The position numbers were made by a program, and so were the translations under genes. The notes beneath the pieces are model-generated. The model ran no database searches. It saw nothing but the letters and a program-made list of their open reading frames with translations, and was not told the DNA's origin. DNA of 64,000 bases. It comes from Cyanidioschyzon merolae. Lineage: Eukaryota. Positions 10,033-52,450 of this stretch are shown here, one piece after another. How positions within the stretch are numbered: position 1 is the first letter of the stretch; each line of letters opens with the position of its first letter. Location of the stretch: assembly GCA_000091205.1 (NCBI GenBank), contig AP006489.2; one strand, given 5' to 3'.

Positions 10033-10621
10033 TGACTTTTTTAGGTACCACTTTTGTATCTATTGTTCCTACGGAGATAGGTTTGTCCGAGATGCCAAAG
10101 ATCGCTGGCCAGTGCTTCAAAGAATGACCTTTGAGATACCTCTATGGAACATATTGTACCTAAAGAGACAGGTTCATTTTCTATGCAAGAGGGCATTTGC
10201 CTCCACTTGGATCCATCGATTGCACGTAACGAGATCTCCTTTATGCTCCCAGGATCGATGCTACTCACCGGATAGCCGCGGGTACACCAACGTTTCTGCT
10301 TGAAAGAGTGCGGACGTCGTCTGCAGTACAGATGCTTCCGAGTTCAACAACATCCCGAAAAGCATTCCTTTAGAGAACTGGAGCATCGTCCAGCAGCCTC
10401 CGAGGCGTTAGGCATCACGCGAGCGCTCGCTGCGACCATCAACGCACACCATTGGACAGTGCACAATGCGACGCAGCTACCGCGGCGTCGTCTGCTGCGT
10501 GTGCCATGGATCATACCTCGTGCACGCTAGGTACGTTCGCACAGGGCGTCAGCTTCTCGCAAAGCGCGTACTGCTCCTGCATTCCGTGAATACGAGCGCT
10601 GCCTCAGCGCCATCCAGTGCG

Positions 10622-33154: not shown

Positions 33155-36100
33155 TTGTCAGCGTCATCCAAACGTGGTTCTAGAGCTCGTTGGTTACGAC
33201 GCTCTGGGAGGCGGCTGTGTCAGCACCGACCAGCCGAGCATACCATGTCGGTCGCGAAACGAAAACGAAGACCTGCTGTGCAGGAGCTTCACGGACATGT
33301 CGAAGGCTGGGACGGTCCCGAGTACGCATTCTTGCTGCCGGTAGGCGCTGCTGCGTGGCGTCTGCGTTTCGACGCATGGTCAGGTGCCCTGGCCGGCTCT
33401 ACCGTCGTGCCGGAGCGGGAGCCCGTGGAGGGTTCGGCTTTTCCGGCTCAGGCGGGCCGTCAGTTCTCAGTAGAGGGTTTCCTCACTAGCACGAGGAGGC
33501 TGTCAGTGCATACAGCGCCAAAATCGCAGGCAGAGGCGGAGGCGGACGTACAGCTGAGACCCTGCGACCCGCGCAAGCACCCCGACTCGTTGGGAACGGG
33601 ACATTGCAGGCTTCGCCTTCTTCCCGCGTTTCCGTCAGACGCGAATGATGCGAATGATGAACGAACATTGATCGTTTTGCATCTGAATAGGGCGATAACA
33701 GAAGCCTACCTTGTAGCCCAGTTTGGGCGCTACGGTCCCGTAGAGCAGGCGCTCGTGCATTGCGACGAGCGGGGCACCCCCATGGGATTTGCGAGCATCC
33801 GCATGAAGTCCAAAGACGCGTGCCGTCAAGCGCTTCGTGAAATGCACAACAAAATACTCATGGGCTCTCGAATACAAGTGTTTGTTGATCCAGGCGGAGA
33901 TACGGCTGCCGCTCGACGACGAGCGTTAATCGATAGAAGGAACCGCTGGGAGCAGGAGCAACGAGCACAACTGGAGAAGCATCGTCGGCCTGTTGAAGCA
34001 CAGGCGCTAGATGCAGCTGCCGGTGCTCGTGGCGTTCCCCACGCTAGCCAGCGACCTGCTGATCGATTGAGTTTGACGTCCGACCAGCAAGGCGCTAGTC
34101 CGGCGGCGAATGGCGCTAGAGCCGATACTCTTGGTGTACAGGGACCTGACGATCGACTGATTTTGGCGTCAGATCAGCAACGTACCAGCCCAGTAATGAC
34201 TGCAAGCAGCGCACAGCACGCTGCTGTGACTCGATATGCTTCACGAGACGAACGCGACCCTCGGCAACGAGCGACTTGCGCTGGGCGTCATGGTCTCGTA
34301 CGGAGCGTGCAAGCGTCTCTGGTGAATGACGCGAGTCGCCGTGCATTCGCTGACGCACCCGAACTGGATAGGGAGCGCCCAAATCACGCTGACAGGTCGG
34401 TTTCGGGTCTGGATGCGTACCGCTCAGCAACAGCACGAGGTACGATCGCCGGGAATGCCTCCCGTACTGAATCGGGGGTCAGCGTGGCCCGAACAGGGGC
34501 ACCAACCGCTGGTGGCAGCTTTTCCGAAGATGCCAGGGTCATTCAAGTGGCGGGCGTTCCGGTAAAGACGCCGAGATCCGTACTCATGTCGGCGTTTCGA
34601 CGATTCGGTAAGATTCTTCGGATCAAAGGATGTGCAGAGCCTGGGAAGCGCGATGCCAGCGAGTCAGCGGTAACGTCGACCGAAGCGGAATCGCAAACCC
34701 GTACGTTCCTCATGTACTTCAGAACGAGGGAGCAGGCGCTAGAAGCTGCAGCTCACATGGATCAGCACATGATCATGGGGAAGCGTGTTCGAGTCTCGTG
34801 TGTTGTCGACCAGGCAGTGGCGTCCGGTTCGCGTCCCGAAATTGGAAACGTCAGGGATGACGCTGTAGAGGGCGCAGGACATGCCCAGGGACTCTTGTCG
34901 AGAGCGTCGATGGGTGCAAATGGGCGACTGGTCCATTCGGGGGCATCTGGGCATCCATCTTGGAAGCGACTTTCAGAAAGAGGACGCAGCTGCACCAATG
35001 CGCCGTCAGGCGTTACCGAGGACGCTGCCGTACGGGGACGCGTCGCCGGAGACCGCACTTTATACAATGCAGCAAAGCCGGTCTGTCCGACAAACTTCTT
35101 GGTTTCCACTGAGATTCACGCGGTGCGTCTGAGCACGCTACCGTTCAATACACCGCACTATGAACTTAATGAGGCGTTGGCGAGCGCTCCCTGTTCTGTG
35201 CGAACTGTCGCTCGAGCGCCCTTCTGGTACGTCCTCTTCGCTGACGCCGCCGATTTGTATCGCTTTACACGTTGGCTTCGCAGTCGTAACCAGGAGCTGC
35301 TCGGTTGTAGCATTCTGTTCGAGGCTTGCCGGGTAACACTCGCAGAGGACGGCTCCGGAATCCACGAGGTGACGCTCATGAGGGCTGAGCGTTCCTTTGC
35401 GACGCGCCTGGAACTCCTGGATGCGATTGGCGACATCTTCGAAGGGCAAGTGCGTCATGCACTTCTGCGGGATCTGCATCGCGAGATTCTCGATAAGGTT
35501 GCACAACAAGTCATGGAGACGTTCGAGGCCCGCATGCGTGAAAAGCTCGCCCGTCAACGACTCGAATCCGGTGGCGACAAAGCAGCCAAACCTCCGCGAA
35601 TGGGATCCGTTTCGCTGGACGTACTACCCGAGCTGGCGATGAGGCAGCGTTCGCGACGTTCGCCGGGGTCCCAGCCAGGAGCACCCCCCGACCCGCAGTC
35701 AGCAGTCGAGAAGGGAGCGAGTGCCTCATCTGCGGTGGCAGAACTGGCCCGTTTATCATCGCGATCTTCACTCGATCGCGCTGCACACGACTCGCTCTCA
35801 GTATCGCTCTTGGAAGATGTGGCGCCCGACGAGGACCAGGTGTACCTGCAAAGAGTTTTAGAGTGCTGCTTCCAACCGACGGACGATGTGCCGCCTCAGC
35901 TGAGCGCTTCGATCGTCAGTACCCTGGACCAAGACAAAAGCGATATCGCTACGCGCTACCGCGAGCACTGGAGCCCGTATCTGGAAACCTTGTTCGATAC
36001 GCATGGAATATGTATCAAGCAGAAGCTGCAGGAACCAGAGCCGCCAGCAAACTCCACCGGCTGCGCGCGAACTGAAGGCTATGCGGCGTTTTCGCGTGAG

Positions 36101-36700
36101 CTCAAGGCATTCCGTTGGCGTCCGCCGAAACAAGTCATTATTCCGGCGGATGAGGCCCGGCGCTGGAGTGCCACCGGCAGCCTGCGTGGTACCCGCGTCG
36201 AGCAACGCCAGCTCCTCTCTGCGGTCAGTGATCGTGAACAGACCGTACTCTATCTGCAACAGCGCGAACGATTCCTGCGCTTCTACCGCTCTGGGATTCA
36301 TGGCTACGGCTTGTGGGCGCTCGAGGACATCCCCGCCGGTGACTACATCATTGAATACCGCGGGGAGCTGGTACGCTCTGCTGTGGCCGACCTACGCGAA
36401 CGTGCTTACCGCCAGCAGGGCATGGGCGACTCGTTCATGTTTCGTATCGACGCGGATACCGTTGTTGATGCAACCCACATTGGAAGCGTTGCCCGTTTCG
36501 TGAACCACAGCTGCGATCCGAACGCGATCGCCCGAATCGTGCAACTCGGTGGTGCATCCCATATTCTGTTTTACAGCAAGCGTTCGATCTGTGTGGGCGA
36601 GGAGATTACCTACGACTACAATTTTGATATTGAGGATGATGCCTCCGAGAAGGTACCATGTTTGTGTGGAGCACCCAATTGCCGTCAGTATTTGAACTGA
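33155..36700 (+). CDS. SET1: SET1/COMPASS-type histone H3K4 methyltransferase with an RRM, a long disordered linker, and SET plus post-SET domains.
   Basis: The RRM reads LIVLHLNRAITEAYLVAQFGRYGPVEQALVHCDERGTPMGFASIRMKSKDACRQALREMHNKILMGSRIQVFVD. The C-terminal SET domain reads GYGLWALEDIPAGDYIIEYRGELVRSAVADLRERAY...FRIDADTVVDATHIGSVARFVNHSCDPNAIARIVQLGGASHILFYSKRSICVGEEITYDYNF. The post-SET segment reads CLCGAPNCRQYLN. Confidence 0.85.
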   Translation: MSASSKRGSRARWLRRSGRRLCQHRPAEHTMSVAKRKRRPAVQELHGHVEGWDGPEYAFLLPVGAAAWRLRFDAWSGALAGSTVVPEREPVEGSAFPAQAGRQFSVEGFLTSTRRLSVHTAPKSQAEAEADVQLRPCDPRKHPDSLGTGHCRLRLLPAFPSDANDANDERTLIVLHLNRAITEAYLVAQFGRYGPVEQALVHCDERGTPMGFASIRMKSKDACRQALREMHNKILMGSRIQVFVDPGGDTAAARRRALIDRRNRWEQEQRAQLEKHRRPVEAQALDAAAGARGVPHASQRPADRLSLTSDQQGASPAANGARADTLGVQGPDDRLILASDQQRTSPVMTASSAQHAAVTRYASRDERDPRQRATCAGRHGLVRSVQASLVNDASRRAFADAPELDRERPNHADRSVSGLDAYRSATARGTIAGNASRTESGVSVARTGAPTAGGSFSEDARVIQVAGVPVKTPRSVLMSAFRRFGKILRIKGCAEPGKRDASESAVTSTEAESQTRTFLMYFRTREQALEAAAHMDQHMIMGKRVRVSCVVDQAVASGSRPEIGNVRDDAVEGAGHAQGLLSRASMGANGRLVHSGASGHPSWKRLSERGRSCTNAPSGVTEDAAVRGRVAGDRTLYNAAKPVCPTNFLVSTEIHAVRLSTLPFNTPHYELNEALASAPCSVRTVARAPFWYVLFADAADLYRFTRWLRSRNQELLGCSILFEACRVTLAEDGSGIHEVTLMRAERSFATRLELLDAIGDIFEGQVRHALLRDLHREILDKVAQQVMETFEARMREKLARQRLESGGDKAAKPPRMGSVSLDVLPELAMRQRSRRSPGSQPGAPPDPQSAVEKGASASSAVAELARLSSRSSLDRAAHDSLSVSLLEDVAPDEDQVYLQRVLECCFQPTDDVPPQLSASIVSTLDQDKSDIATRYREHWSPYLETLFDTHGICIKQKLQEPEPPANSTGCARTEGYAAFSRELKAFRWRPPKQVIIPADEARRWSATGSLRGTRVEQRQLLSAVSDREQTVLYLQQRERFLRFYRSGIHGYGLWALEDIPAGDYIIEYRGELVRSAVADLRERAYRQQGMGDSFMFRIDADTVVDATHIGSVARFVNHSCDPNAIARIVQLGGASHILFYSKRSICVGEEITYDYNFDIEDDASEKVPCLCGAPNCRQYLN

Positions 36701-37572: not shown

Positions 37573-38166
37573 GTGAACCTCATGTGTTTGCGACACGTGC
37601 AGCGCGTTTCTCTCCTTCTGTTTCTCGGGTTTGCGGTACTTCTTGAGTTTGTGCCCAGTGAGGTGCACGGCTTCAGCTCCAACGACGTTCGAGCGAGACG
37701 CACTGTGTTTGTGGTCCACCCGCGCAGAGGCGGTACGCACCGTGTCTCGCTCGATACACCTCCGAACCCGGCAACGACGTGTACGTTTCGGTATGAGCAG
37801 GTGCAAGGTGCAACTCCGGAGACCTGGGAGCTTTTGATTTACGGAGATCGCACAGTAGGCGAGCTCGCTTGTCGAGCTCGGCGACTACCAGCGGCTCAAG
37901 CGACTGAACTTGGCGAGAACTTGGACGGTACCGGGATCGACTTAGCAGCCGAGCACGACTACGCTGCCCCGTCTTATCTGCTTTTCGAGGATATGCAGCT
38001 CGAACTTGGTGATAACGCGACGACAGTGATCGAAGCAGTGGCCTTCGACTCAAGCGGCGTACGGCTGGCGACCAGCGACCTCGTGTCGAGCGGTTCACAA
38101 CTGCGGACGCGTTCGGGGTTCATGGGAAATCTTCGAAGCGTGATGCTGAAGGCGCTACTTTACTGA
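37573..38166 (+). CDS. Hypothetical small protein with a predicted N-terminal signal peptide, possibly secreted.
   Basis: MNLMCLRHVQRVSLLLFLGFAVLLEFVPSEVHG contains a hydrophobic core and an AxA-like cleavage context. The remainder is not low-complexity and carries no RxLR or other known motif. Confidence 0.3.
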   Translation: MNLMCLRHVQRVSLLLFLGFAVLLEFVPSEVHGFSSNDVRARRTVFVVHPRRGGTHRVSLDTPPNPATTCTFRYEQVQGATPETWELLIYGDRTVGELACRARRLPAAQATELGENLDGTGIDLAAEHDYAAPSYLLFEDMQLELGDNATTVIEAVAFDSSGVRLATSDLVSSGSQLRTRSGFMGNLRSVMLKALLY

Positions 38167-38692
38167 CTCGATGCCTGGCGCTTACTGGTTTCGCTATCCT
38201 GCGCACATTGCGGGTGACTGCGGTGGAAGCGATGAGGTCTTAAGCGGAGATGTTGTGACCGCGCGACTGGCACAAGCGAGACAGAGAAGAAACCGGCGGC
38301 TTGATGTCCCGCACACACACCCCCCCGCCTGCTTGCATACAGTGGAACGATTGTTGGCAGGTATAGATGTAATGACGCGATATAGCAAGCATGCTTGTCT
38401 AGCGTGATGAGAGAAGCGCGCACATCGCTGACGCTGGTGCCACAAGCGCAGCTGCTGTCTACCTGTTTGAGGGTGTATGGCCAGGGGTCACGGATTGCGG
38501 GCATTGCCAAGCGCCGGGGTTGTTGCTGTGTGTATGTGTATGTGTGTGTGGTATACTTACAGGCCATGTCGTCTTGCACGTCGCGAGTCTGAAAGACTCA
38601 CGAGTTTTTGCTAGATAAAAGAGATGCTCTGGTGTACACTGGTTCATTATGGCGGTGCGCTGATAGATGCAGGCATCGCGTTATTCAACGTG

Positions 38693-40300
38693 CGATGACT
38701 TTTGAAGTACATGGAACGTATAGCCATGTTTGATTTTGTTTGTTTTTCTGGCAGGTATGCAACGAAAGGAATGCGTTTCGCAGACTGGGGAAAGGTCGGC
38801 AAGAGGCTCGATGGCGCCACTACTGGCTAGCGAAGAGAGGCCTTCGCATCAGAAGCAGCACAGAGTGCCTCCCTGGGGTCCGAGTGCACGAGCCACCTTT
38901 TGCGTCCGTTCGATATAGACCGCAAATATCAGACCAAGGCTCATGATCGCATCGTAGACTCTTCTGCATGGAGCTTTACGACCACCACCGTAGTGAGCAG
39001 CGGCAGATATCTGCGACCAATACGAAGCATTCGAGCAACACCGCAAAGCGCACTGGCGAGATACCTTGCTGTTAACCGAGAGGAAACGGGAAGACGTGTT
39101 TGCGAGGACGTCAAAGACCGGACGGAATATCAATCTGTATGCACATTGCGCAGCATCTGGACCAGCGTCTACCAAAGAGACTCATTCGCACCCGTTCAGC
39201 CCAGATGAAGACAACGTCTTCGCGATGGTGGTGTTCGTGCATCCCGAATCCAGGTGCATCGAAGCACTCGCCGTACCTGTAGATCAAGAGCACGGAGCCA
39301 GCGACCCAGGAAGAAACCAGATGAAGCTGCTCGATCTCCGGGGATTCTCTCTGGTAGGCAGCTGGGAATGATCGGCACCAGAGGGTATACCAGAAAATGG
39401 AATGCTGTTATCAGCACCAATCGCGACGCTCCGAGCTCTGCATCCAGCAGCGGGCGATGCTTGCGTCCGTTTCATTCAGAGCGTGCCAAAAACGTCCAAA
39501 CAGTTGATGCACGCGATACTCAGCGGGAATTCGGGACACCGCACCGGAGTCGCCGACAGTTTCGGCCGTATGGAGGCAACAAGCGCGCAAGTGTCGGGTT
39601 CTTCACTGATTTCGAACAGAAAATGACGAGAGGTTTGCGTCGTTTCGCGATAGCCTTCGGCGCTGGGCTTGAAGTTGCGCACACGCCCTGAACTCCTGCG
39701 CTCCGTCGACGAAAGCCGGCAGTGCGCACGGGAATCTGCGCTATACGATTCCCATCGGTGACTGAATCCCGGGCGACATCGATGCATCACGAGCGTGGGT
39801 GCTTGCTGCGACACGAATAGAAACAATCGTATGAAACAGCGTCGGATGCACGCCATGGTGTCCAGAAGGCTGAGCGGACGTCAGTTGGCGAGGCAATCGA
39901 AAAGCATTGCCCAGCTCGTGTGTGATGCCACCGGCTATCATGCACGCGAGCTCTCTCTCTCTCTGTGACGACTCGAACGCCTCCATTATTCACTGGGTAT
40001 GACCAGTGCTTCGAGAGCGTCCAGCGGCCTTGTGTCGAGCGAACGTTCCCGAAAATCGTTTCGTAATCAGCCTGGGCATCTTGCTGAAAAGCTGCAGCCT
40101 TGCGTCCAGAAACACAATGCATCAGTGACCAGGAGAACGCGCACTGGATGCTCACCCCGCAGGAACACACCGCTGTGCTTCGGGTGAGCAATCCATCAAG
40201 GCTGCAGCGACGTGCACCCATCCACCGGTAACGGTATTCCTCAACAGTATTTGAGCGATCATGGGGTTCCACGAATCAACTGTAGAGCGTATATCGCACA
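38693..40300 (+). repeat. Inverted-repeat arm A (about 1.6 kb).
   Basis: It is the reverse complement of 44945-46558 at about 99% identity. Mirrored ORF pairs are 39066..39371(+) with 45879..46184(-), 39476..39856(-) with 45394..45774(+), and 38900..39208(+) with 46042..46350(-). Boundaries were mapped by eye at cgatgacttttgaagtacatgg and tgcgatatacgc. A (CT)n/(GA)n indel near 39950/45290 shifts the frame between the two copies. Confidence 0.88.
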
Positions 40301-41161
40301 GCGGTTGCCGTATCTGCCTAGGTGCTCGAAGATACTTGCCCGCAGAAACGCTGCTTGGTTTCGCGACACCTGAATTCGACTGGTAGGCAGGGGCCTGCAA
40401 TGCGCCGCCATCGGGGATGGAGAAACAGTTGCTTCGGAAGCCGCTTTCTAACAGGCCGTTACAATCAGACAGCACCGGTTTGGGAACTCGCGTCGACGTC
40501 GGCAAGTCTGTACTGCCTCAATGCAGCGGCCTCGATAAAGCCGGCACTCAGTAAAATGCCGGTTCTACTGAGTTTCGATTTTATCGGCGAACCCTGTTCT
40601 GGGCATGGCTGTTGTAAAGGCATCTGCAGAAGCGGGAGTGCATACGTCCACAGCGGCTTCCGTTTTGCACATTGGGCCGTGTCTGATTGAATGCATCGAT
40701 CACCTCCCGTGAAAATTCCTTTGAGAAAAGACTACAACGGAGGCGCTTCCATCCATGCCGCCCTCTGGCGGCAACAGATCCGCCTAATCCCCATCGCAGG
40801 GTACCAGGTGCAGTACTGCGGACAAGTGATATCCGCGGAAGCGACACTCCAGCCGACATCAGCCGCCTGCATTGATCGAAGTGACCGCCGCTTCTCACTC
40901 GACCATGCACTGTGTGAGCATTCGAGAGCAGCACGCAATTCATCACATACTATGTTCGACAAAGCCTGCGGTGTGCATTTCGCCAGAGATGCCAAAGACA
41001 AAACCGTTGTCGATGGCGGCTGGCCGAACCAGTTCAAAAAAGCGTCTCCAGGCATCTCTGAAGTTGTACGTTATGGAGCTTCGGGCCGAGAATCCGCATG
41101 CACTGCTCAGCGGCACGCCGCAGAATGTCCCGACGAGAACGTGCCTACACCACACCAGCCT

Positions 41162-42046
41162 TCAAGATAGGATAGACTCATCTTCGTCGTCAAGGACGCG
41201 CAAACTGGCCACTTCTACGATTCCTTGTTGATTTGTTTCGCGCTGAACGATTTCCTCGATCTCTCGAAACGCCCCAGGATCCGCCTGCACCGTCCAGAGA
41301 AGGGCACCGCCAGGCAACCACTCTTCCGACTCGCTCTCTACTGCGGCGCTGCCATCTTTCATTCGTACCGAGTCCGAACGAGAGGAACTGTGTGTACCGT
41401 CAGTTTCGCCTTGCTGCAACGGCTCCAGCCGGGCCTTGACCGCTTTGGCATCCCGCTGACTCGGTACGTGAATACGTAGACGCAGTCGTGCGCGCTCGAG
41501 GTCTAGACCACTCTGGGCTCGTAAGAGCGGTATCACTTCGAGCGCTTGTGCTTTTGCTGGTCGATTCGGCTGCACGGCAAAGTGGATCTCGCGAAGCGCT
41601 TTCTCAATGAGCCCAACAGGGAGCGGTTTCTTGGTCTCGCGACTGATGGTTTTCGCCGCCACAACACTCGCAATTTCATGAAGCTTTCGAGTGCTCTGGT
41701 ACTGGCGCTCGCGGTCCGACACCTGCAAGTCGCCGTGGAGCAGAATCTGGAGCAGCACAGCGTGCCGATCCCTGGTGCCAAAACAGCGCTCGAGGTCTGC
41801 GTTTGCGGCTAGTTTTCCCTTGGACACGTTCTCAAACACGTCCTCTACCTGGATCACCTCGTCGAGATCGCGAACGTGCCCCTCACGGTACGCCATAACC
41901 ATGTTCGGGTAGCATGCGATTTCGAAACGCTTGCCTCCTTTGCGCATGCGCACAACGCTCACGTTTGTAAGCCGTTTCTGAGTCACTGGTTGGAACATGA
42001 TCACCCAGGAGAGGTTTCCTAGTTGTAAAATAGGTACACAGGCCAC
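41162..42046 (-). CDS. SBDS: Ribosome maturation protein SBDS (Shwachman-Bodian-Diamond syndrome protein homolog, SDO1).
   Basis: [58 protein letters not shown]...[16 protein letters not shown] aligns with human SBDS [59 protein letters not shown]...QILTKGEVQVSDKERH. Confidence 0.88.
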   Translation of the reverse strand: [294 protein letters not shown]

Positions 42047-43980
42047 GAGCTGGCCCAGAAGGACCCCTACGCTCGGAGTGAATCAAGCAAATACCTCCAC
42101 AAGCACGAACGCTCCTGCGAGTACCACCACGCTGAACACCAGTCGAGCAGGAGCGAGTGGGCGCGCGGCGTCCGCTGGCGACGTGTCCGTTTTCCGGTAA
42201 CGCCACCGCTGCAGCGCGCCGGTCAGAGGCGTCACGCTCCTGTGACGCCTTAGGGGCATGCAAACGGCCCTGACAGCGATAGGATCGGTACCCGCGAACT
42301 GGATGAGGCGATTCCTCCCATGATTTGTTTGCTGAAGGTAGCGCTTGCTTGCTCGTGCTCGATGGCATGCTACAGGGTGCATGCCAGATGGCGAATGATG
42401 TTCGGTTCATTGGTCGATGTGGATCGTCATGGACGAGATGAGACTAGGGAAGAGGAGGCGGCAGGATATCTGGCGATCCGCGGCGTCGCTTGTCCATCGA
42501 CGCGTAAGGCTCGTGTGCGGCGGCCGTTCGCTCTCGAAAATGGGCCATATGCTCCATCGGATATCCAGGTGCACGAAGGCTAGCGTATGCTATCTCTGCG
42601 GAAGCGCGTCCGAACATGAAGATCAATCATAATCCATCGCTGGTTGATACTTTGAGCGCTGCATACGCATCGGGACGCGCTGGAATTCGGGTACAGATGA
42701 CCACGCACGCGTCCGCTGTGCTGCTCGGTGAGCGGGCGGTTGCGTTCACCAAAGTGCAGCCACGAGATGAAACGAGGTCGACGAGACTGCTTGGAAGCTC
42801 TCAGGGTGTTGCGACAGGTCGCTTTGTGGGCTACTGCTACCCACTGGATGCGGCGGAGACTCAAACGCACTCGCATGATTGCTATGAGCATCGCAGGGAT
42901 GCCAGCGGGAATCACGAGGCATCTGTCGCTCAGAGAGCCCTCGATCACGAACAGGAATGGAGTGTTTCGAGTGCTGTACAGCGCAAGAGCGGACGCCAAG
43001 AATCAGAACCCTGGAGATGCATTCAGAAACGCGTGCCGGCTGGTGCCTATCCTTGGGAGGAAGATCCGGCGAATTGTGCATGTCCATACTGGGGCGTGCT
43101 GCGCCAAGTCCCGTATCGCGTACCGACAGGGTCACCTTCACTCGATCGCAAATTGGAGACTCGACCCCAGGATTCATCCTCACAACCGAGTTTCTCGAAT
43201 GCATCGCGCCGCGAAAGCAGGTCTGTGTCCGCTGACTGCTCGAGCACAACCTGACAGTAAAAAAACCGGCCTCGCGCCCGATAGACCACACCCCGAGCTG
43301 ACACCCACTCTAGCATTGCAAAGTTGCCCTGTGTACGTGCAGCACCAGCTCTAGAGGCGCTATTGTGAACGCGAATGGCAGACACGGCGCACGATGCCGT
43401 GTGCGCAATGACCACCAGCACCACCACCATCGACCAGCAGGATGGTAAATGGAACTCGCTCATCGTGCATGGATCAATGGACGTTTCCCGAAACGCCAAT
43501 CTCAACGACTACGTCGGGAATTCCCTGGTCCGCATAAACCTGCTATCAGTCAAAGCGAATGCTGCGGGGTACCAGCATCATCGCCACAGGCACCATTCCA
43601 GGTAGCGAGCACGCGATCGCGGCAGCATCGAGCGCCACGCGACGTGGCGGGAAATGCGACACGCAGCCCAGATGTGCGATGCGTGATTGGCGCGTTTGCG
43701 GCAGTGCTCACGCAGGCTATCACTAATAGCGTTTCCAGGCGCTCTTTTCGATTTGTGCCACTCACTGGTGCTGTTCGTTGTGACGCTGAGTTCACGCAAC
43801 ATCAGCTCAGCTCGCTTACTCGAGACTCGAATCTGGTTACTGACTGCTGCCCGATCGTTGAGGTGTTCGAGTCTCGGAGCTATTGGAACGAGAACATTCG
43901 GGTGCTGACCCACAGGGTCCCGTTCGAGCACTGCGCGCTGTGAACGGCGTTATAGAAACGCACGAGGCAAAGTGCTGCAT

Positions 43981-44604
43981 ATGGCGAGCGGCAAGCGTAA
44001 AGGACTATCCTTCGATGACAAGAAAACCCGTTTGTTGGAGCTGTTCAATGAGACTTGCGATTTTTACACGTTAAAGGAGCTGGAGAAAATCGCCCCGAAA
44101 CTGAAAGGAATCATCACCCAGTCCGTCAAAGATGTGTTACAGTCGCTCGTAGACGATGATCTGGTGAACTCGGATAAATGCGGTGTCCAGACCATTTACT
44201 GGTGTTTGCCCTCAGAAGCCGTTGCCAAGAGGCAACGTCGGCTTGATGCGCTGCAACAGCAGCTGGCGGAGAAACGCCAAAAACTGACAGCGCTACAGCG
44301 CCAGCTGGTCCAAGTCCAGGCGGGTCGCGAGGACAGCGTTGAGCGTACAGCCGTACTGGAGAGGCTTGCAGCTTGTGAAGCGGCCTGGCGTGAACGGCAA
44401 CGAACGCTCGAGTCCTACCTCGAGTGCGACCCTGATGTCCTGGCGCAGCGCGAAACCGAAACCAAGACCCTGATTGAACAGGCAAATCGTTGGACCGATA
44501 ATCTCTACGTCATTCGAAGCTACGTCCAACGAAATCTAGGAGTTGACCTCGACCTATTCGATCAGCAGTTTGAGCTTAAGCCTGCGCTGCAGTATTTGGA
44601 GTGA
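43981..44604 (+). CDS. MND1: Meiotic nuclear division protein 1 (MND1), the HOP2-MND1 recombination cofactor.
   Basis: [80 protein letters not shown] aligns with human MND1 [78 protein letters not shown], followed by a coiled coil. Confidence 0.88.
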   Translation: [207 protein letters not shown]

Positions 44605-44944
44605 ACACGCATGCACAGGGTGCGGTATACCGTGCCTGCGGCCAGCGCTCTACCTCTATGTGTGCGCTGAGCGTTGGGCGGTGCTGCGTTCGCAGGTCGT
44701 CGTTTTCGTGATATCCTAAGGCTTGCGATGCCTGTAGCGTTAATCGTGCGAAAGCGGATTCGTCACGGGAACTTGACCGAAAGTCGCCTGGTGCGTGCAC
44801 CGCAACAGCACTCGATCCCGATGCGAAAGATCCTATGCGGTCTGATTCCTTTGTTCGTGGTAAAGGGAAAGCACCGTCAGAGGCTTGGGCCGCTCACGCG
44901 CTGCTCCGAGGCAGCCTGCTGCCGTCGTGGTATCGACGGCAGGC

Positions 44945-46558
44945 TGCGGTGCGATATACGCACTACAGTTGATTCGTGGAACCCCATGATCGCTCAAATA
45001 CTGTTGAGGAATACCGTTACCGGTGGATGGGTGCACGTCGCTGCAGCCTTGATGGATTGCTCACCCGAAGCACAGCGGTGTGTTCCTGCGGGGTGAGCAT
45101 CCAGTGCGCGTTCTCCTGGTCACTGATGCATTGTGTTTCTGGACGCAAGTCTGCAGCTTTTCAGCAAGATGCCCAGGCTGATTACGAAACGATTTTCGGG
45201 AACGTTCGCTCGACACAAGGCCGCTGGACGCTCTCGAAGCACTGGTCATACCCAGTGAATAATGGAGGCGTTCGAGTCGTCACACAGAGAGAGAGAGAGC
45301 TCGCGTGCATGATAGCCGGTGGCATCACACACGAGCTGGGCAATGCTTTTCGATTGCCTCGCCAACTGACGTCCGCTCAGCCTTCTGGACACCATGGCGT
45401 GCATCCGACGCTGTTTCATACGATTGTTTCTATTCGTGTCGCAGCAAGCACCCACGCTCGTGATGCATCGATGTCGCCCGGGATTCAGTCACCGATGGGA
45501 ATCGTATAGCGCCGATTCCCGTGCGCACTGCCGGCTTTCGTCGACGGAGCGCAGGAGTTCAGGGCGTGTGCGCAACTTCAAGCCCAGCGCCGAAGGCTAT
45601 CGCGAAACGACGCAAACCTCTCGTCATTTTCTGTTCGAAATCAGTGAAGAACCCGACACTTGCGCGCTTGTTGCCTCCATACGGCCGAAACTGTCGGCGA
45701 CTCCGGTGCGGTGTCCCGAATTCCCGCTGAGTATCGCGTGCATCAACTGTTTGGGCGTTTTTGGCACGCTCTGAATGAAACGGACGCAAGCATCGCCCGC
45801 TGCTGGATGCAGAGCTCGGAGCGTCGCGATTGGTGCTGATAACAGCATTCCATTTTCTGGTATACCCTCTGGTGCCGATCATTCCCAGCTGCCTACCAGA
45901 GAGAATCCCCGGAGATCGAGCAGCTTCATCTGGTTTCTTCCTGGGTCGCTGGCTCCGTGCTCTTGATCTACAGGTACGGCGAGTGCTTCGATGCACCTGG
46001 ATTCGGGATGCACGAACACCACCATCGCGAAGACGTTGTCTTCATCTGGGCTGAACGGGTGCGAATGAGTCTCTTTGGTAGACGCTGGTCCAGATGCTGC
46101 GCAATGTGCATACAGATTGATATTCCGTCCGGTCTTTGACGTCCTCGCAAACACGTCTTCCCGTTTCCTCTCGGTTAACAGCAAGGTGTCTCGCCAGTGC
46201 GCTTTGCGGTGTTGCTCGAATGCTTCGTATTGGTCGCAGATATCTGCCGCTGCTCACTACGGTGGTGGTCGTAAAGCTCCATGCAGAAGAGTCTACGATG
46301 CGATCATGAGCCTTGGTCTGATATTTGCGGTCTCTATCGAACGGACGCAAAAGGTGGCTCGTGCACTCGGACCCCAGGGAGGCACTCTGTGCTGCTTCTG
46401 ATGCGAAGGCCTCTCTTCGCTAGCCAGTAGTGGCGCCATCGAGCCTCTTGGCGACCTTTCCCCAGTCTGCGAAACGCATTCCTTTCGTTGCATACCTGCC
46501 AGAAAAACAAACAAAATCAAACATGGCTATACGTTCCATGTACTTCAAAAAGTCATCG
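44945..46558 (-). repeat. Inverted-repeat arm B (about 1.6 kb).
   Basis: See arm A. It ends about 165 bp upstream of the TBCE start codon. Confidence 0.88.
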
Positions 46559-46721: not shown

Positions 46722-48434
46722 ATGCGCGTAGCGTATGGATCAGCCCGAGGTGACTTGCGCTGGCGTGGTCAACTCCCGGAAGTAGACGGTGGCAAGTACA
46801 CTTGGGTCGGCGTCGAGTGGGACCCCGGCCCCGACGCTGACAAGCACGGGCGCCACGACGGTACCTTTCGAGGCAAGCGCTACTTCTCGTGCGAGCGAAC
46901 ACCGGCACGTGCGAGCTTCGTGCGCGCAGACCAGGTACACTTTCCACAGTCTCTGGGTTACCTTCTTGACGCGTACCAAAAACCAGGGACGCAGACGCAA
47001 CCGGGCGATGTGTCAGGATCGACGGAGCAACCGGCTGCTGGCGTAGCTCCGCTAGTCTCCGCTTGTCTGGCACGATCATGTGTCGTCTGGAACCCAGCTG
47101 AATCGGCGTTGGTTGCTGAACGTCACGGGAAAAGTGTTCGGTACTTGGACATATCTTTTGGACTTATCGAGTACTACGAAGACGTCGCAGAAATCCTGCA
47201 GACTTTTCCGAGACTTGAAGAGCTGGACATTTCGGGAAATCGATTGCGACCCCGCAACTCAACTACGATTTCGCCAAATCATGCGCTCAGCTCTATTGCG
47301 TGGGTGTCTCAGTCACTGCGGATTCTACGCTGGAACTGCGCAGGTGTCGAGACTTCGATCGCGGCGCTCGCTCAACTCGTCCTTGGTTGCACGGTGCTCG
47401 AGGAGTTGCGCCTCCATGGGAATCATATTCGACTTGAAGTACGCAGTACGAACACGACCATACTGCCTCGATCACTTACGCGCCTCTACTTGGGAGCGAA
47501 TCATTTGGAATGTGTTGCTTGTCTGCCGTCGCCTGAGCTCGAATTACTAGACTTGAGCGAGAACCCTGCACTGGATCGCTTGGGAGCGCCAGCCTCTTCC
47601 ACAGAGTGCTTTGCGCCACGGCTCTCTTCGCTGAACTTGACGGATACCTCATTCGTTTGCCTCGAGTTTCTAGCGGATCCCAATCACTTTCCGCAACTAC
47701 GTAACTTGCGTCTCCGCCATCTTCCACGGGATCACATTATAGCCCGAATGCCGTATCTAGAAAAACTGAATGGTTCAGAGATCACTGCTGCTGAGCGGCG
47801 GGAAGCAGAGCTGCGATTTCTCGCCGACTGGTCAACTGCTGCACAGGACGCGTTTGCATCGTCGCCTCTCAAGCGCCGTGTGGAAGCGCTTTGTCGCCAG
47901 TACGGTGTGAAAGCAGAGGCGCCTCTTCCACTGCCGTCGCCTCTGCCACACATGGAACGGGGATACGTTCCAGTGGTACTCGGGCAGCTGCGCATGGACG
48001 CGCCAGTGCCGACGCGGATTCCTCTTGCATCCCTCTCGCAATGCCAGCAGCAGCAGCAGCAGCAGCAGCTACTGCTGCAAGTACCAGCGTCCACACCTTG
48101 GTGGCTAGCGGAACGCATCGCCTTCACACAGTTGTCCGGGATCCGGAATCAGCTGGTATCGCCTCCGTCCGATGATCGTCATCATGTCGTCGTGCATCTA
48201 GCGTATGCAACCGCACATGAGCTTGCTTTGCAACCTCAACCCGATTGGCTGACAACGCTAGAAGAGCTTGATTCAGCTGGAAAGAGCCCAGTTTATGTGC
48301 TGGTCCACATCGAAAGGAACAAGTCACATGTCAAATGCTGCGACTCGAAGAGCGCTGCATCCGCGGCTGACGGTCTAGACGCGAACGCACCAGCCACTGA
48401 GACGCCAAGCCAATCAGTGCCGCTTGAATCGTAA
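46722..48434 (+). CDS. TBCE: Tubulin-folding cofactor E (TBCE)-like protein with CAP-Gly and leucine-rich repeats, and an internal polyQ tract.
   Basis: The CAP-Gly stretch GGKYTWVGVEWDPGPDADKHGRHDGTFRGKRYFSC...ASFVRADQV matches TBCE [28 protein letters not shown]...GSFIRPNKV. Multiple LxxLxLxxN LRRs follow (LEELDISGNRL, LEELRLHGNHI, LELLDLSENP). The start was chosen at MRVAYGSARG because the upstream part of the 46488 ORF lies inside IR arm B and is non-homologous. (CAG)8 at about 48046-48070 encodes polyQ. Confidence 0.7.
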   Translation: MRVAYGSARGDLRWRGQLPEVDGGKYTWVGVEWDPGPDADKHGRHDGTFRGKRYFSCERTPARASFVRADQVHFPQSLGYLLDAYQKPGTQTQPGDVSGSTEQPAAGVAPLVSACLARSCVVWNPAESALVAERHGKSVRYLDISFGLIEYYEDVAEILQTFPRLEELDISGNRLRPRNSTTISPNHALSSIAWVSQSLRILRWNCAGVETSIAALAQLVLGCTVLEELRLHGNHIRLEVRSTNTTILPRSLTRLYLGANHLECVACLPSPELELLDLSENPALDRLGAPASSTECFAPRLSSLNLTDTSFVCLEFLADPNHFPQLRNLRLRHLPRDHIIARMPYLEKLNGSEITAAERREAELRFLADWSTAAQDAFASSPLKRRVEALCRQYGVKAEAPLPLPSPLPHMERGYVPVVLGQLRMDAPVPTRIPLASLSQCQQQQQQQQLLLQVPASTPWWLAERIAFTQLSGIRNQLVSPPSDDRHHVVVHLAYATAHELALQPQPDWLTTLEELDSAGKSPVYVLVHIERNKSHVKCCDSKSAASAADGLDANAPATETPSQSVPLES

Positions 48435-48681: not shown

Positions 48682-51600
48682 CTATTGCGTCTCACCATTT
48701 GCCTGAGATGTGCTCACAAAATCGCTGCCCGACAGGATACCGAGTTGCTTGGCGATTTCCCGTAAACGCTCAATACACACCTTGTTTGTCTCATCGTGGA
48801 CATGGTAGCGCTCGAGAAACAACCGCACCTGGGACGCAGCAGATCGATCCGGAATCGTACGCAGCAGGAGATCGTCGTTCTCGAGCTCACGATCGTGACT
48901 CGAGCTTCGCTGCTGGCGTACCAACATAAGCGTTTCCGCCAGTGCGAGGTATGCCTCCGCAAGCGTGAACTGCTGTGGTGGCTGCGGCGCCGTCTGCTGG
49001 AGCCCAGCCCCGGCCGAAGCCATCTTTTTCGACCCGAACTGCGACGGACGTGTCGCTGTCTCGAGTGCTCGGATCGTCTTGCGACTGTACTCAAGCGCTT
49101 CCGCTAGATTGCCGTGCCTGGTTGCACAACGACGCAACGCGTCCCAAACGATCGGATCGCTGATACCTGTCGCTGCTACACTGCGTAACAGCGACTCAAG
49201 GGCGCTCATTTGACGCACCCTGACCGGGTCATCCACATGCACATCCTGGTCGGTAACCGAGGTTTCATCCAGAACGTCGCTCATGGCAGCGAGTATCGCT
49301 GCGAGAGCGGCGTGATCGTAGCCGTCGCGTCCGCGAAACTCGAGGAGCTTGCTCTGTGCTCGAAGTGCCAACGCCCATTCTTTGGCACCAGTGGCAGCGA
49401 TCAGGAGATTCTGCCATACCTGCCATGATTCAGGGCGTAAACGGGCCGCTTCTGCGAAACACTTGACAACGCGGTGTCGTTTGAGCATTGACGCTGGGTT
49501 ACCCGCTTCCTCGGCCATGGTCTGCCGCAGGAGAGCATGCCCTAGGTTGCTCCAGGCCTCGGCATGCTCGGGTTCGTACTGCACGGCGCTTGTGTAGGAC
49601 TCAGAGGCCCAGTCCCAGCGTCCAAGTTTCTGTGCACAAAAGCCACAAGCGAACCATATATCCTGGTGCAGGGGATTCACAGTCAGCGCTCGGCGAAAAT
49701 GTTCATAGGCACGCTGCCAGTCGCCACGGCGCATTGCCAGGCGTCCAAGTGAACGCTGGGCTCGTGCGTATCGCTCACCGCTGATTTGCCAGGCTTGGTT
49801 GTAGAGCGCCTCGGGGGTGCGATGTTCGTCCAGCGGGCGATCTCGTTCAGGCATCATGACCAACACATCGCCGAGCACACAGAGCAAACGCGGACTACGG
49901 TCACGGACGCGAAGCAGCTCTATGAGCATTTGGTAGGCTCGCGTCCAGTTGCCCATGAGTCGGTGGCAATCGACTGCGTGCTCCCACATCTCGAGTGATT
50001 GGAAAACGTCCAGTGCGGATTTCACCAAACCGAGACGACCGAGCATCCCGGCCCATTCGCGTTGCATCTGCCATCGTAGTGGATAGGCAGTAGCGAATGC
50101 GTACCAGAGGTGCTTCGTCAGTTCAGGTCGAGGTTGCGTGTCGTTGTAAAAGCGTTCCACAAGTTCCTCCATTTGCTCCATGACTCTTTCCTGAAATCGA
50201 GCACGATCTAGTTCGAGGCGAGTGCGCACGAGTAGCGCATATGCTCGAAGCAGGGCGTGCTCTGCCTGCGCTTCGGTTGATCGCTCGGTTGCCTCGATGA
50301 TGTACTCCACACAAGACCGAATGTTTTCCTTTGAGAGCGCAGTTGTGACCTGTTGTGAAGCATCAATGGCTACAAGTCCCGAAAGCAAGATACAATCTGT
50401 GACTGAGAGCGGATGTGGTGATACCTGCTCAGAGCCGACGCTCTCGATGCATACCGTATGGCCCAGGTACTCGTCGTCGCGCAGCGGTATTGCACGTGGC
50501 ATTCCCGCTGCATATGGAGACGAGTGAGCGTCTCGAACGACCACTGCCGCAGATTCGGTCTCCGGAGGTGCATCAGTCCCTTGATGATCATGTGCGGAAG
50601 CAGGCAACACCGCACGGCAACTCGAGTCCGGTATCATGACCGCTTGGCTACTGGGCACTGCACAGCTCGCTTTGCTTGCCGACTCGAGGCGAGGCTCGCT
50701 TCCGAACGAGCGTGCCTCTGCTGTCGTTCCGCAACATTCGAGAGTGGCACCCCGAGACGTTGCCCCAGATAGATCCAGGCTGCTCGCATTGTCGTGCTTC
50801 TCCTTGTTTTGGCAATCCGTTTCGCGACGATCAACCCTAGTCGCTGTTTCAGGCGGGACGGCATCCTCGTTACAATGGGTTCCACAGTGTCCGGTGGCAT
50901 GTTCAGCACAGCGCCTTCCGCCAGAAACCGGGTGCGTATCGGGTGCTGGAGTCCCATCGTGGCTTGTGGTGCTGATGCTGCTGCTGCGGTCGATACGCAC
51001 ACGCAACAACGCCATGGGGCGCTTCTGGTACCGCAGTCGAATGCCACGTTCGCCGCTGAAGCAGATGCGGGCACCTATCCTGCTCGCAGCATGCTCCAGA
51101 AACTCCCTCGCAACTTCTCCGAAGCTATAATAATGGTTCATCAGAGAGAACTCCATACTGGACAGGAAAGTTTCGGCGAGCGTTCCATCGAATGTCCATG
51201 AAGCGGTAACCTGCTGCATCCGGTAGCGAGGTCGGCTGAAAGGCGGCACCACAACCTGCACCTCAATCGTATTCGAGAGCGCTATAGCTTTCCCAATACT
51301 CAGGATCTGGTCCCGCAAAAGCGCAGATGGACCTGATAAACACTGTTGGTAGAGCCACAGTGCGCGAACATACCACCAGGCCTGATACGCTGAGGTCCAG
51401 TCCAGCTCAGCGAGGCACCGCGTCGCCTCCAGCAGGGCACAGGCAGGCGCGCACGCCGCTAGCCAGTCTTCGCCATCAACAGCGAGAGTGTCTCGTTCGG
51501 GCTCCTTCGTGGACCTGGTGACCCGAAGTGGCCAAGTGGCAGGAAGCGGCGGCCCCGTCCACTGATCACGCACGAACGCAAGTATCAAAGCTATGGCGCG

Positions 51601-52203: not shown

Positions 52204-52450
52204 CTCTCGAGAGAGAGAGAGAGAGAGCAGGAGAGAGAGAGATGCTTTTGGGTACATGTCTGCAGTGCGTGTTGGTGAAAGGTAGCAGGCGTTTCACGTG
52301 GTAAGAGGCCTGTGTTCAGAGCTTCTCTGACGTACGCTTTGTTATACATTTGCGGTACGTACTGGTGAAAGGTAGCAGGCGTTTCATGTCGTAAGAGGCC
52401 CGTTTTCAGAGCTTCTCTGACGTACGCTTTGTTATACATTTGCGGAGCGG
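52204..52450. repeat. (GA)n tract at about 52204-52240, followed by a 2 x about 93-bp tandem repeat (52255-52450).
   Basis: The unit tggtgaaaggtagcaggcgtttca[c/t]gt[g/c]gtaagaggcc[t/c]gt[g/t]ttcagagcttctctgacgtacgctttgttatacatttgcgg occurs twice head-to-tail. The duplicated peptide MYNKAYVREAL in ORF 51960..52460 mirrors it. Confidence 0.85.

What the first reader, a model, noticed from the sequence alone, without database searches (positions are those of the whole stretch)
38693..46558. About 1.6-kb inverted repeats (about 99% identical) enclose SBDS and MND1, forming a potentially invertible 4.6-kb segment
Arm A (38693-40300) and arm B (44945-46558) are reverse complements of each other. 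They flank exactly two conserved genes, the ribosome-maturation factor SBDS and the meiotic recombination cofactor MND1. The arms carry no recognisable coding sequence. One arm has a (CT)n microsatellite indel. Arm B ends about 165 bp upstream of TBCE. Recombination between the arms would flip SBDS and MND1 relative to their neighbours. The near-identity implies recent duplication or ongoing gene conversion. The arms could alternatively be the two TIRs of a large composite element that captured host genes.
Basis: seen in the sequence. Interest (0 to 1): 0.65.

Follow-up and report, generated by a model that had tools for sequence, protein, structure and literature searches.

The report
Young inverted repeat bracketing SBDS–MND1
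In the red alga Cyanidioschyzon merolae, two nearly identical 1.6-kb stretches of non-coding DNA sit in opposite orientation on either side of an anciently linked gene pair (SBDS, MND1); this probably lets ordinary recombination flip the pair, but it is not a transposon, it shows no sign of being a switch, and the flipping itself is not proven.

Summary
The arms are 38693-40302 and 44946-46558 (1610 and 1613 nt). They are reverse complements that differ by 8 substitutions, a 1-nt T indel and a 2-nt GT indel. The window is Cyanidioschyzon merolae 10D. Independent metagenome assemblies confirm all four arm/unique junctions, so the repeat is not an artefact.

The arms are non-coding: no Pfam hit, no codon signal, and neutral-looking polymorphism. 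They have no target-site duplication and no third copy was seen. They are absent from Cyanidiococcus, an unnamed relative and Cyanidium. All three keep the order SET–UPF0556–SBDS(−)–MND1(+)–TBCE–TPR. So the genes are in their ancestral place and orientation, and the composite-transposon idea fails.

Best reading: a young, species-specific inverted duplication of non-coding DNA that is a passive substrate for homologous recombination, through gene conversion and flipping. Six contigs show the 10D linkage and five the flipped linkage. However, these are short-read assemblies that collapsed the arms, so inversion polymorphism is plausible but unproven.

In passing, a 1.18-kb direct repeat pair in the same window flanks the nitrate-assimilation cluster. 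That cluster is deleted in most Yellowstone contigs, which shows that young repeats here coincide with real structural polymorphism.

The parts
38693..40302 (.). Arm A of the inverted repeat (1610 nt, non-coding). The outer end lies 526 nt downstream of the UPF0556/MYDGF stop. The inner end lies 859 nt downstream of the SBDS stop.
   Evidence: Repeat and alignment. No Pfam hit in six frames. No codon signal. Neutral SNP pattern, 25 SNP/kb.
44946..46558 (.). Arm B of the inverted repeat (1613 nt), the reverse complement of arm A. The inner end lies 341 nt downstream of the MND1 stop. The outer end lies 172 nt upstream of the TBCE-like ATG.
40303..44945 (.). Unique 4643-nt segment between the arms, which would be flipped by arm-arm crossover. 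It holds SBDS and MND1 as a divergent pair, with a 1982-nt non-coding spacer between their start codons.
41162..41998 (-). SBDS/SDO1 ribosome-maturation gene (CMG027C, BAM79558), 278 aa.
   Evidence: Pfam SBDS_N, domain II and C. Exact match to C. merolae 10D. SNPs 8 synonymous to 2 non-synonymous.
43981..44604 (+). MND1 meiotic recombination cofactor gene (CMG028C, BAM79559), 207 aa.
   Evidence: Pfam Mnd1 and LZ3wCH. Exact match. SNPs 4 synonymous to 0 non-synonymous.
37582..38166 (+). Left-flank gene, UPF0556/MYDGF-like (CMX038C). It marks the left unique flank used for linkage calls.
   Evidence: Gene table of PMC13353863.
46731..48434 (+). Right-flank gene, tubulin-folding cofactor E-like with CAP-Gly and LRR domains (CMG030C, BAM79560). 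It marks the right unique flank.

Best explanation
The arms are a young inverted duplication of about 1.6 kb of non-coding DNA, specific to the C. merolae lineage. It arose on either side of the ancestral, divergently transcribed SBDS-MND1 pair. It encodes nothing and has no dedicated machinery.

It works only as a passive substrate for the cell's general homologous recombination. Non-crossover events (gene conversion) keep the two arms alike. A crossover between the arms flips the 4.6-kb SBDS-MND1 block without creating any new junction sequence and without disrupting any gene.

Shown: the repeat, its non-coding and unconstrained nature, its absence from related genera, the ancestral orientation in 10D, and the absence of transposon hallmarks.

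Inferred: that conversion and flipping actually happen. I put about 0.6 on both orientations existing in natural populations.
For: - **Repeat geometry and identity:**
- **Non-coding:** no Pfam hit in six frames. A codon model that recovers UPF0556, SBDS and MND1 gives nothing in the arms. All 15 arm ORFs have a synonymous fraction of 0-0.36, apart from a single-SNP ORF, and the arms carry 25 SNP/kb, like other intergenic DNA. SBDS shows 8:2 and MND1 4:0 at 6-12 SNP/kb.
- **Lineage-specific:** Cyanidiococcus (L033), an unnamed relative (L034/L035) and Cyanidium (L036) have the same gene order and orientation but no inverted repeat longer than 68 nt. Only their coding sequences align to the region.
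- **Arm divergence:** 0.50% in substitutions, at or below strain divergence of 0.57-0.71%. Only sites within 7-17 nt of the arm ends track their unique flanks across populations (with exceptions in L020, and in L012 at 40300), and several 10D arm differences are private to 10D.
- **Recombination between repeats in this organism and region:**
  - Marker excision by intrachromosomal recombination between direct repeats has been demonstrated in 10D (PMC13353863 section 11).
  - About 10 kb to the left of arm A, a 1.18-kb, 99.4% direct repeat pair flanks a 12.5-kb unit that is missing, with one repeat copy left, in 9 of 10 Yellowstone contigs.
- **Both linkages across the arms exist in assemblies.**
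  - 10D type: L013, L014, L021, L026, L007, L037.
  - Flipped type, including both reciprocal junctions: L008-L011 (left flank-arm-MND1) and L020 (right flank-arm-SBDS).
Against: - The linkage evidence is weak. The JGI assemblies are Illumina short-read.
- Each assembly contains the mid-arm only once. About 25 further contigs stop inside or at the arms.
- Crossing contigs carry arm SNPs as mosaics unrelated to their flanks. A roughly 50:50 split is what arbitrary traversal of a collapsed repeat would give.
- L026 even has a 131-nt internal duplication in its arm, which suggests misassembly there.
- Recency alone could explain the identity, without any conversion.
- The donor site of the duplication could not be identified, because intergenic DNA of the relatives is unalignable.
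- Both spacers look about 1.6 kb longer than in Cyanidiococcus, which fits an insertion at both sides equally well.
Confidence: 0.75

Rival explanations
1. Origin variant: the inverted duplication was created together with an inversion, by staggered breaks at one breakpoint followed by fill-in. This model was proposed for Drosophila inversions flanked by inverted duplications (from my own knowledge). The flipped form would then be the primary product, and the 10D arrangement would be a secondary re-inversion by arm-arm recombination.
For: - The structure, an inverted duplication of breakpoint-adjacent non-coding DNA at both ends of a short segment, is what that model produces.
- Contigs with the flipped linkage and its reciprocal junction exist (L008-L011, L020).
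- Without arm A, the UPF0556-SBDS spacer (1385 nt) matches the relatives (1296 and 1426 nt). With arm B, the MND1-TBCE spacer (2126 nt) is nearer to the unnamed relative (1647 nt). So arm B could be the original copy.
Against: - The finished 10D genome has the ancestral orientation, so the model needs two events.
- The flipped contigs are not reliable.
- A templated, inverted insertion during break repair gives the 10D structure in one step.
Confidence: 0.12
2. The arms are two copies of a non-autonomous mobile element inserted in opposite orientation on either side of the gene pair, or the terminal repeats of a composite element that carries SBDS and MND1.
For: Relative to Cyanidiococcus, both intergenic spacers are about 1.6 kb longer in C. 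merolae. Minus the arms they are 1385 and 513 nt, against 1296 and 546 nt. Both arms therefore look like added DNA.
Against: - There is no target-site duplication around the pair or around either arm, and the arms have no terminal inverted repeats of their own.
- No transposase or reverse-transcriptase similarity was found.
- Every contig recovered with arm ORFs or an invariant arm 34-mer belongs to this one locus. There were no matches in viral contigs.
- The genome has only about 0.7% transposons, all non-LTR or bacterial-transposase-like (PMC1955436).
- SBDS-MND1 occupy the same syntenic slot in three genera without the repeat, so they were not captured and moved.
Confidence: 0.05
3. A programmed or selectively maintained invertible switch, functionally like the flip-flop mating-type switching of some yeasts. 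Flipping would change expression of SBDS and/or the meiotic gene MND1 through long-range position effects.
For: - The segment contains a meiosis gene in an alga whose sexual cycle was only recently found (PMC13353863).
- SBDS and MND1 are both modestly higher (2.1-fold and 1.4-fold) in haploid MS1 Ha3 than in 10D or diploid MS1, whereas the TBCE-like flank gene (CMG030C) stays flat and the other neighbours vary in other patterns.
Against: - Because the arms are identical, a flip leaves at least 1.6 kb of cis-context on each side of every gene unchanged. The flip moves no promoter relative to its gene.
- No recombinase gene is nearby.
- The arms evolve neutrally and are absent from related sexual genera.
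- The mating-type region is on another chromosome, between CMK076C and CMK078C.
- Expression differences of 2-fold or less are common in that table.
Confidence: 0.03
4. Assembly artefact in the reference, such as a misjoined or falsely duplicated repeat.
For: None was found. The only general concern is that repeats are error-prone in assemblies.
Against: - The reference is a finished Sanger/BAC telomere-to-telomere assembly.
- The left flank|arm, arm|SBDS-side, MND1-side|arm and arm|right flank junctions are each reproduced in several to many independent assemblies from different samples and assemblers.
- The two arms carry distinct boundary-proximal variants that track their flanks across populations, apart from exceptions in L020 and L012.
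Confidence: 0.01

Closest known systems
Inversions mediated by inverted low-copy repeats through non-allelic homologous recombination, for example the human Xq28 FLNA-EMD segment flanked by about 11-kb inverted repeats (from my own knowledge)
   Same: Two highly identical inverted copies bracket a short unique segment with a few intact genes. A crossover between the copies flips the segment without new junctions or gene disruption. The copies are prone to concerted evolution.
   Different: The arms here are much shorter (1.6 kb) and the spacer is only 4.6 kb, in a very repeat-poor 16.5-Mb algal genome. The existence of both orientations is not yet demonstrated with long-range data.
Flip-flop isomerisation across the large inverted repeat of plastid genomes (from my own knowledge)
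   Same: General homologous recombination between inverted copies gives two isomers and keeps the copies near-identical.
   Different: This locus is nuclear and single-copy per haploid genome. The arms are non-coding, with 0.5% divergence rather than identity. Equimolar isomers have not been shown.
Inversion-based mating-type switching in methylotrophic yeasts (Ogataea, Komagataella), where inverted repeats flank the invertible region (from my own knowledge)
   Same: A nuclear segment flanked by kb-scale inverted repeats that flips by homologous recombination.
   Different: In those yeasts the flip moves MAT genes into or out of silencing chromatin, so it has a phenotype. Here no position-dependent silencing is known, the mating-type region lies elsewhere, and the arms look neutral.
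Drosophila-type inversions with inverted duplications at their breakpoints, explained by the staggered-break model (from my own knowledge)
   Same: Inverted duplication of non-coding breakpoint-adjacent DNA at both ends of a segment.
   Different: In 10D the enclosed segment is in the ancestral orientation, not inverted.
Composite or TIR-bounded DNA transposons
   Same: Long inverted terminal sequences enclose cargo genes.
   Different: There is no target-site duplication, no transposase and no other copies. The cargo is in its ancestral syntenic position.

Membership tests
Inverted low-copy repeat pair mediating recombination-driven inversion | Two copies in inverted orientation, highly identical over at least several hundred bp | tested here: met
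   1610 and 1613 nt, 99.3% identical, reverse-complementary.
Inverted low-copy repeat pair mediating recombination-driven inversion | Both orientations of the enclosed segment occur among individuals, with breakpoints inside the repeats | tested here: inconclusive
   There are 6 contigs with the 10D linkage and 5 with the flipped linkage, including both reciprocal junctions. The assemblies are short-read and collapsed the arms, and the SNPs are unphased.
Inverted low-copy repeat pair mediating recombination-driven inversion | The host performs homologous recombination between repeats of this size | tested here: met
   Excision between direct repeats has been shown experimentally in 10D (PMC13353863). 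Nearby, a 12.5-kb unit lying between 1.18-kb direct repeats is missing from 9 of 10 natural contigs, with one repeat copy left.
Inverted low-copy repeat pair mediating recombination-driven inversion | Concerted evolution of the copies (paralogues no more diverged than orthologues) | tested here: inconclusive
   The arms differ by 0.50%, against strain divergence of 0.57-0.71% genome-wide and about 1% in flanking non-coding DNA. No core site is arm-specific across populations, but the metagenome arms are collapsed consensus sequences.
Composite / TIR-bounded transposon | Target-site duplication flanking the element | tested here: not met
   The left flank ends ...CAACGTG and the right flank starts GACTGAA... 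No duplication is present, and none surrounds the individual arms either.
Composite / TIR-bounded transposon | Transposase, or a remnant of one, within the element or arms | tested here: not met
   No Pfam hit at E up to 1 in six frames of the arm. The only coding genes inside are SBDS and MND1.
Composite / TIR-bounded transposon | Multiple copies or evidence of mobility; cargo not in its ancestral position | tested here: not met
   All contigs carrying arm sequence come from this locus. Synteny of the cargo is conserved in three genera without the repeat. The full 10D genome could not be searched.
Site-specific or programmed invertible switch | A dedicated recombinase, or a promoter or gene whose expression depends on orientation | tested here: not met
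   No recombinase domain was found in the region. A flip leaves the cis-context of all genes unchanged for at least 1.6 kb (sequence geometry). A long-range position effect is not testable here.
Staggered-break inversion with breakpoint duplications | The enclosed segment is inverted relative to the ancestral arrangement | tested here: not met
   10D has SBDS(−)/MND1(+) between UPF0556(+) and TBCE(+), exactly as in Cyanidiococcus and the unnamed relative and, apart from the absent TBCE, in Cyanidium.

The most novel reading that the evidence does not exclude
The inverted repeat is not just tolerated but used. The SBDS-MND1 block would flip at appreciable frequency in natural, sexually reproducing C. 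merolae. Orientation would matter, either by changing expression of the meiotic gene MND1 or of SBDS through chromatin or replication context, or by locally suppressing meiotic crossing-over in heterokaryotypes. That would make it a nuclear flip-flop switch in a red alga.
Probability: 0.04. Interest if true: 0.7.

Novelty: new member of a known kind. Interest (0 to 1): 0.33.

Why it matters
C. merolae 10D is a widely used minimal-genome model, described as having the simplest nuclear genome of any free-living eukaryote, with almost no repeats. A 1.6-kb inverted duplicate around two essential or meiotic genes is therefore a concrete, previously undescribed structural feature.

It matters in practice for three reasons. 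It is a likely recombination hotspot. It will confound short-read assembly, read mapping and gene targeting at CMG027C and CMG028C. It is also a simple natural substrate for measuring mitotic and meiotic ectopic recombination, now that the sexual cycle is accessible.

Together with the neighbouring direct-repeat pair that flanks the nitrate-assimilation cluster, it suggests that young kb-scale duplicates contribute to structural variation in this streamlined genome. It does not point to a new kind of genetic element.

Tried and rejected
1. **Trypanosomatid-like polycistronic origin.** Rejected: genes alternate strands, and the organism was identified as C. merolae 10D.
2. **RNA genes in the arms.** No tRNA and no Rfam family at gathering score.
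3. **Hidden or frameshifted gene or transposase in the arms.** Pfam on six frames was negative, the codon model was negative, and the SNP pattern is neutral.
4. **Homologue search with concatenated arm ORFs.**
   - `search for homologous proteins` returned nothing. Its candidate list saturated and it did not recover even the identical metagenome ORFs, so I treat this as uninformative.
5. **Phasing arm SNPs to prove real crossovers in the flipped contigs.** This failed. Core sites are mosaics in all contigs, which shows instead that the arms were collapsed by the assemblers.
6. **Comparing sister-sample contigs for clonal identity.** The populations are polymorphic at 0.3-1%, so no clean inference was possible.
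7. **Viral or mobile origin.** Two invariant arm k-mers have no match in viral contigs.
8. **Published inversion between 10D and MS1 Ha3.** It is on chromosomes 3/19, not this locus.
9. **Gene IDs CMG026 and CMG029.** These numbers fall where the arms lie. I could not find them in any text, so they remain an unverified lead.
10. **Expression differences of SBDS and MND1 between strains.** They are 2-fold or less and not interpretable.
11. **Hybrid structure of the single direct-repeat copy in the deletion alleles.** The pattern is mosaic, with no clean crossover point.

Full report
**1. Observation**

The inverted repeat is real. The repeat finder reports two collinear inverted pairs, 38700-39967/45283-46550 and 39951-40302/44946-45297. 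Together they form one repeat broken only by a 2-nt indel. BLAST and global alignment give arm A as 38693-40302 (1610 nt) and arm B as 44946-46558 (1613 nt).

The arms differ by 8 substitutions, at 38799, 38916, 39062, 39495, 39737, 40098, 40286 and 40300. They also differ by a 1-nt T indel at 38699 and a 2-nt indel at 39963, giving 99.3% identity. The indel is one GT unit next to a (CT)7 run, not a CT unit. The unique segment between the arms is 4643 nt. A self-comparison of the window finds only one other long repeat, an unrelated direct pair.

**2. Organism and genes**

Exact protein look-ups identify the window as Cyanidioschyzon merolae 10D, on a 584,452-bp chromosome. SBDS is BAM79558 and MND1 is BAM79559.

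| Gene | Window coordinates | Strand | 10D ID |
|---|---|---|---|
| SET/RRM protein | 33155-36700 | + | CMG025C |
| UPF0556/MYDGF-like | 37582-38166 | + | CMX038C |
| SBDS | 41162-41998 | − | CMG027C |
| MND1 | 43981-44604 | + | CMG028C |
| CAP-Gly+LRR tubulin cofactor E-like | 46731-48434 | + | CMG030C |
| TPR protein | 48682-51870 | − | CMG031C |

Pfam confirms these identities, and the IDs come from the published 10D gene table. Arm B ends 172 nt upstream of the TBCE-like ATG. The reference is a Sanger/BAC-finished telomere-to-telomere genome with only about 0.7% transposons. The paper describing it does not mention this repeat.

**3. What the arms contain**

- There are no tRNA or Rfam matches.
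- There is no Pfam match in any of six frames at E up to 1.
- A codon-usage model trained on 14 genes of this window recovers UPF0556, SBDS and MND1 sharply. It gives no signal anywhere in 38.1-41.2 kb, 42.0-44.0 kb or 44.6-47.7 kb.
- Natural polymorphism from about 30 related contigs gives the best test:
  - Real genes carry 6-12 SNP/kb with excess synonymous change (SBDS 8:2, MND1 4:0).
  - The arms carry 25-26 SNP/kb, like other intergenic DNA (21-41/kb).
  - Among the 15 arm ORFs of at least 60 aa, the synonymous fraction is 0-0.36, about the neutral expectation. The two highest values, 1.0 and 0.5, rest on one and two SNPs.

The arms are therefore unconstrained non-coding DNA. They have no internal structure of note and no terminal inverted repeats of their own. 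No target-site duplication surrounds the pair or either arm.

**4. Other copies**

Look-ups with a mid-arm ORF that gene callers routinely call returned 8 contigs, all from this locus. Two arm k-mers have no match in viral contigs. I could not search the complete 10D genome. A homologue search with concatenated arm ORFs returned nothing but was technically uninformative.

**5. Evolutionary context**

MND1 homologues led to long contigs of three relatives:

- Cyanidiococcus yangmingshanensis (71% identical MND1).
- An unnamed relative (67%).
- Cyanidium caldarium (56%).

The first two have SET(+)-UPF0556(+)-SBDS(−)-MND1(+)-TBCE(+)-TPR(−), the same order and orientation as 10D. Cyanidium has the same arrangement but without TBCE.

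None of the three has an inverted repeat longer than 68 nt in the region, and only coding sequence aligns to the C. merolae locus. Three conclusions follow:

- The gene pair is in its ancestral position, so it was not captured by a mobile element.
- The 10D orientation is the ancestral one.
- The repeat is a novelty of the C. merolae lineage.

Minus the arms, the two C. merolae spacers (1385 and 513 nt) resemble those of Cyanidiococcus (1296 and 546 nt). The unnamed relative has 1426 and 1647 nt. The donor side of the duplication therefore cannot be decided.

**6. Does the segment invert?**

An arm-arm crossover creates no new junction, so only linkage over more than 1.6 kb can show it. Public assemblies of about 99%-identical natural populations contain both linkages:

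- 10D type, UPF0556 flank-arm-SBDS: L013, L014, L021, L026.
- 10D type, TBCE flank-arm-MND1: L007, L037.
- Flipped type, UPF0556 flank-arm-MND1: L008-L011.
- Flipped type, TBCE flank-arm-SBDS (the reciprocal junction): L020.

This looked like direct proof at first, but it does not hold up:

- The JGI Yellowstone assemblies are Illumina short-read.
- Each assembly contains the mid-arm once only.
- About 25 other contigs stop at or inside the arms.
- At the sites where 10D's arms differ, only those within 7-17 nt of an arm end mostly follow their unique flank; L020, and L012 at 40300, are exceptions. All core sites are mosaics unrelated to either flank.
- One crossing contig (L026) has an internal 131-nt duplication.

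The arms were therefore collapsed by the assemblers. A 6:5 split is what arbitrary traversal would give, and it is equally what a common polymorphism would give. The verdict is plausible but unproven.

Two things raise the prior. First, intrachromosomal recombination between short direct repeats has been demonstrated experimentally in 10D (PMC13353863). Second, the side finding in section 9 shows structural polymorphism at a repeat pair in this same region.

**7. Age and homogenisation**

The arms differ by 0.50% in substitutions. Genome-wide divergence is 0.71% between 10D and Yellowstone MS1, and 0.57-0.59% between the two MS1 haplotypes. Flanking non-coding DNA differs by about 0.4-2.8% between 10D and the contigs.

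The sampled populations that reach the arms all carry the repeat, so the duplication predates their divergence. Without exchange, the paralogues should be at least as diverged as the orthologues, and they are not more diverged. Several 10D arm differences are private to 10D. This fits either gene conversion or a duplication just before the species' coalescence. The data cannot separate the two.

**8. Comparison with known systems**

Functionally this is an inverted low-copy repeat pair of the kind that mediates recombination-driven inversions. Examples are the human Xq28 FLNA-EMD segment, plastid flip-flop isomers and yeast flip-flop MAT loci (from my own knowledge).

- It fails every test for a transposon.
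- It shows no feature of a programmed switch. There is no recombinase, orientation does not change any gene's cis-context within 1.6 kb, and the arms evolve neutrally.
- The mating-type region lies between CMK076C and CMK078C, on another chromosome.
- The only inversion published between 10D and MS1 Ha3 is on chromosomes 3/19, seen on whole-genome dot plots. A 4.6-kb flip would be invisible at that scale.
- The staggered-break origin model would need a second re-inversion, because 10D has the ancestral orientation.

**9. Side finding**

The same window holds a 1182-nt direct repeat, at 15132-16313 and 27673-28854, 99.4% identical and non-coding-looking. Between the copies lie four genes (gene table):

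- An MFS nitrate-transporter-type gene, 17585-19291 (−).
- Nitrate reductase, 20164-23109 (+).
- A nitrite/sulfite reductase, 24343-26403 (−).
- A fourth annotated gene, CMG022C (hypothetical protein).

They correspond to CMG018C, CMG019C, CMG021C and CMG022C. In published RNA-seq, exactly these four genes have zero reads in Yellowstone MS1 (diploid and haploid) but are expressed in 10D. The genes on either side are expressed in all samples.

Nine of ten Yellowstone contigs (L042, L043, L045-L051) have one repeat copy joining window position about 28.85 kb directly to about 15.13 kb. They therefore lack the 12.5-kb unit. L044 keeps it. This call is robust to assembly problems because the deletion allele has a single repeat copy. 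Cyanidium has the NiR/SiR gene next to the same aminotransferase, so presence is probably ancestral and the deletion derived. Neither paper I read mentions this.

**10. Verdict**

This is a real, young, species-specific inverted duplication of junk-like DNA around an ancestral gene pair. It is a new example of a well-known kind of structure, and flipping is likely but unproven. Interest is modest. Its main value is practical, for a model organism, and as one of two recombination-prone repeat pairs in this window. The other pair coincides with a natural loss of nitrate assimilation genes.

Noticed in passing
window 15132-16313 and 27673-28854 (with 17585-26403 between); loci L042-L051: A 1182-nt direct repeat pair (99.4% identical, non-coding-looking) flanks the nitrate-assimilation cluster: an MFS nitrate transporter, nitrate reductase, NiR/SiR and CMG022C. 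Nine of ten Yellowstone contigs have a single repeat copy and lack the whole 12.5-kb unit, while L044 keeps it. Published RNA-seq shows zero reads for exactly CMG018C, CMG019C, CMG021C and CMG022C in strain MS1. This is probably a natural deletion by recombination between the direct repeats, and it is not mentioned in the papers I read.
   Followed up: yes
window 44920-44946 (MND1-side inner boundary of arm B); L007, L009-L012, L015, L016: Most natural contigs carry an extra 26-29 nt (AGAACGTATGGGCGCTTCTTCAGC...) between arm B's inner end and the MND1-side unique DNA. It is absent in 10D and in L008. It is an indel polymorphism exactly at the repeat boundary.
   Followed up: partly
L026 (JGI 3300053675), arm positions 211-341: This contig has a 131-nt tandem duplication inside its arm copy. 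It is probably a local misassembly, and it warns that arm-crossing contigs in this sample series are unreliable.
   Followed up: partly
window 52248-52445: About 90-nt tandem repeats (2.1 copies, 84-92% identical) lie in the intergenic DNA right of the TPR gene. They are also present in related contigs (L007, L041).
   Followed up: no
10D gene numbering around window 38.7-40.3 kb and 44.9-46.6 kb: In the published protein table the locus IDs run CMG025C, (CMX038C), CMG027C, CMG028C, CMG030C. The unused numbers CMG026 and CMG029 fall exactly where arm A and arm B lie. They may have been non-protein 'transcript' features in the original annotation. I could not verify this.
   Followed up: partly
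L036 (Cyanidium caldarium) 10618-11132; L033, L034: Synteny SET-UPF0556-SBDS-MND1-(TBCE)-TPR is conserved across Cyanidioschyzon, Cyanidiococcus and Cyanidium, but Cyanidium lacks the TBCE-like gene at this position. The SBDS-MND1 divergent spacer grows from 335 nt in Cyanidium to 1982 nt in C. merolae.
   Followed up: no
window 47.9-48.0 kb (TBCE-like ORF) and 38527-38550: There is a polyglutamine run (Q8) in the C-terminal part of the TBCE-like protein, and a (TG)12 microsatellite 143 nt left of arm A.
   Followed up: no
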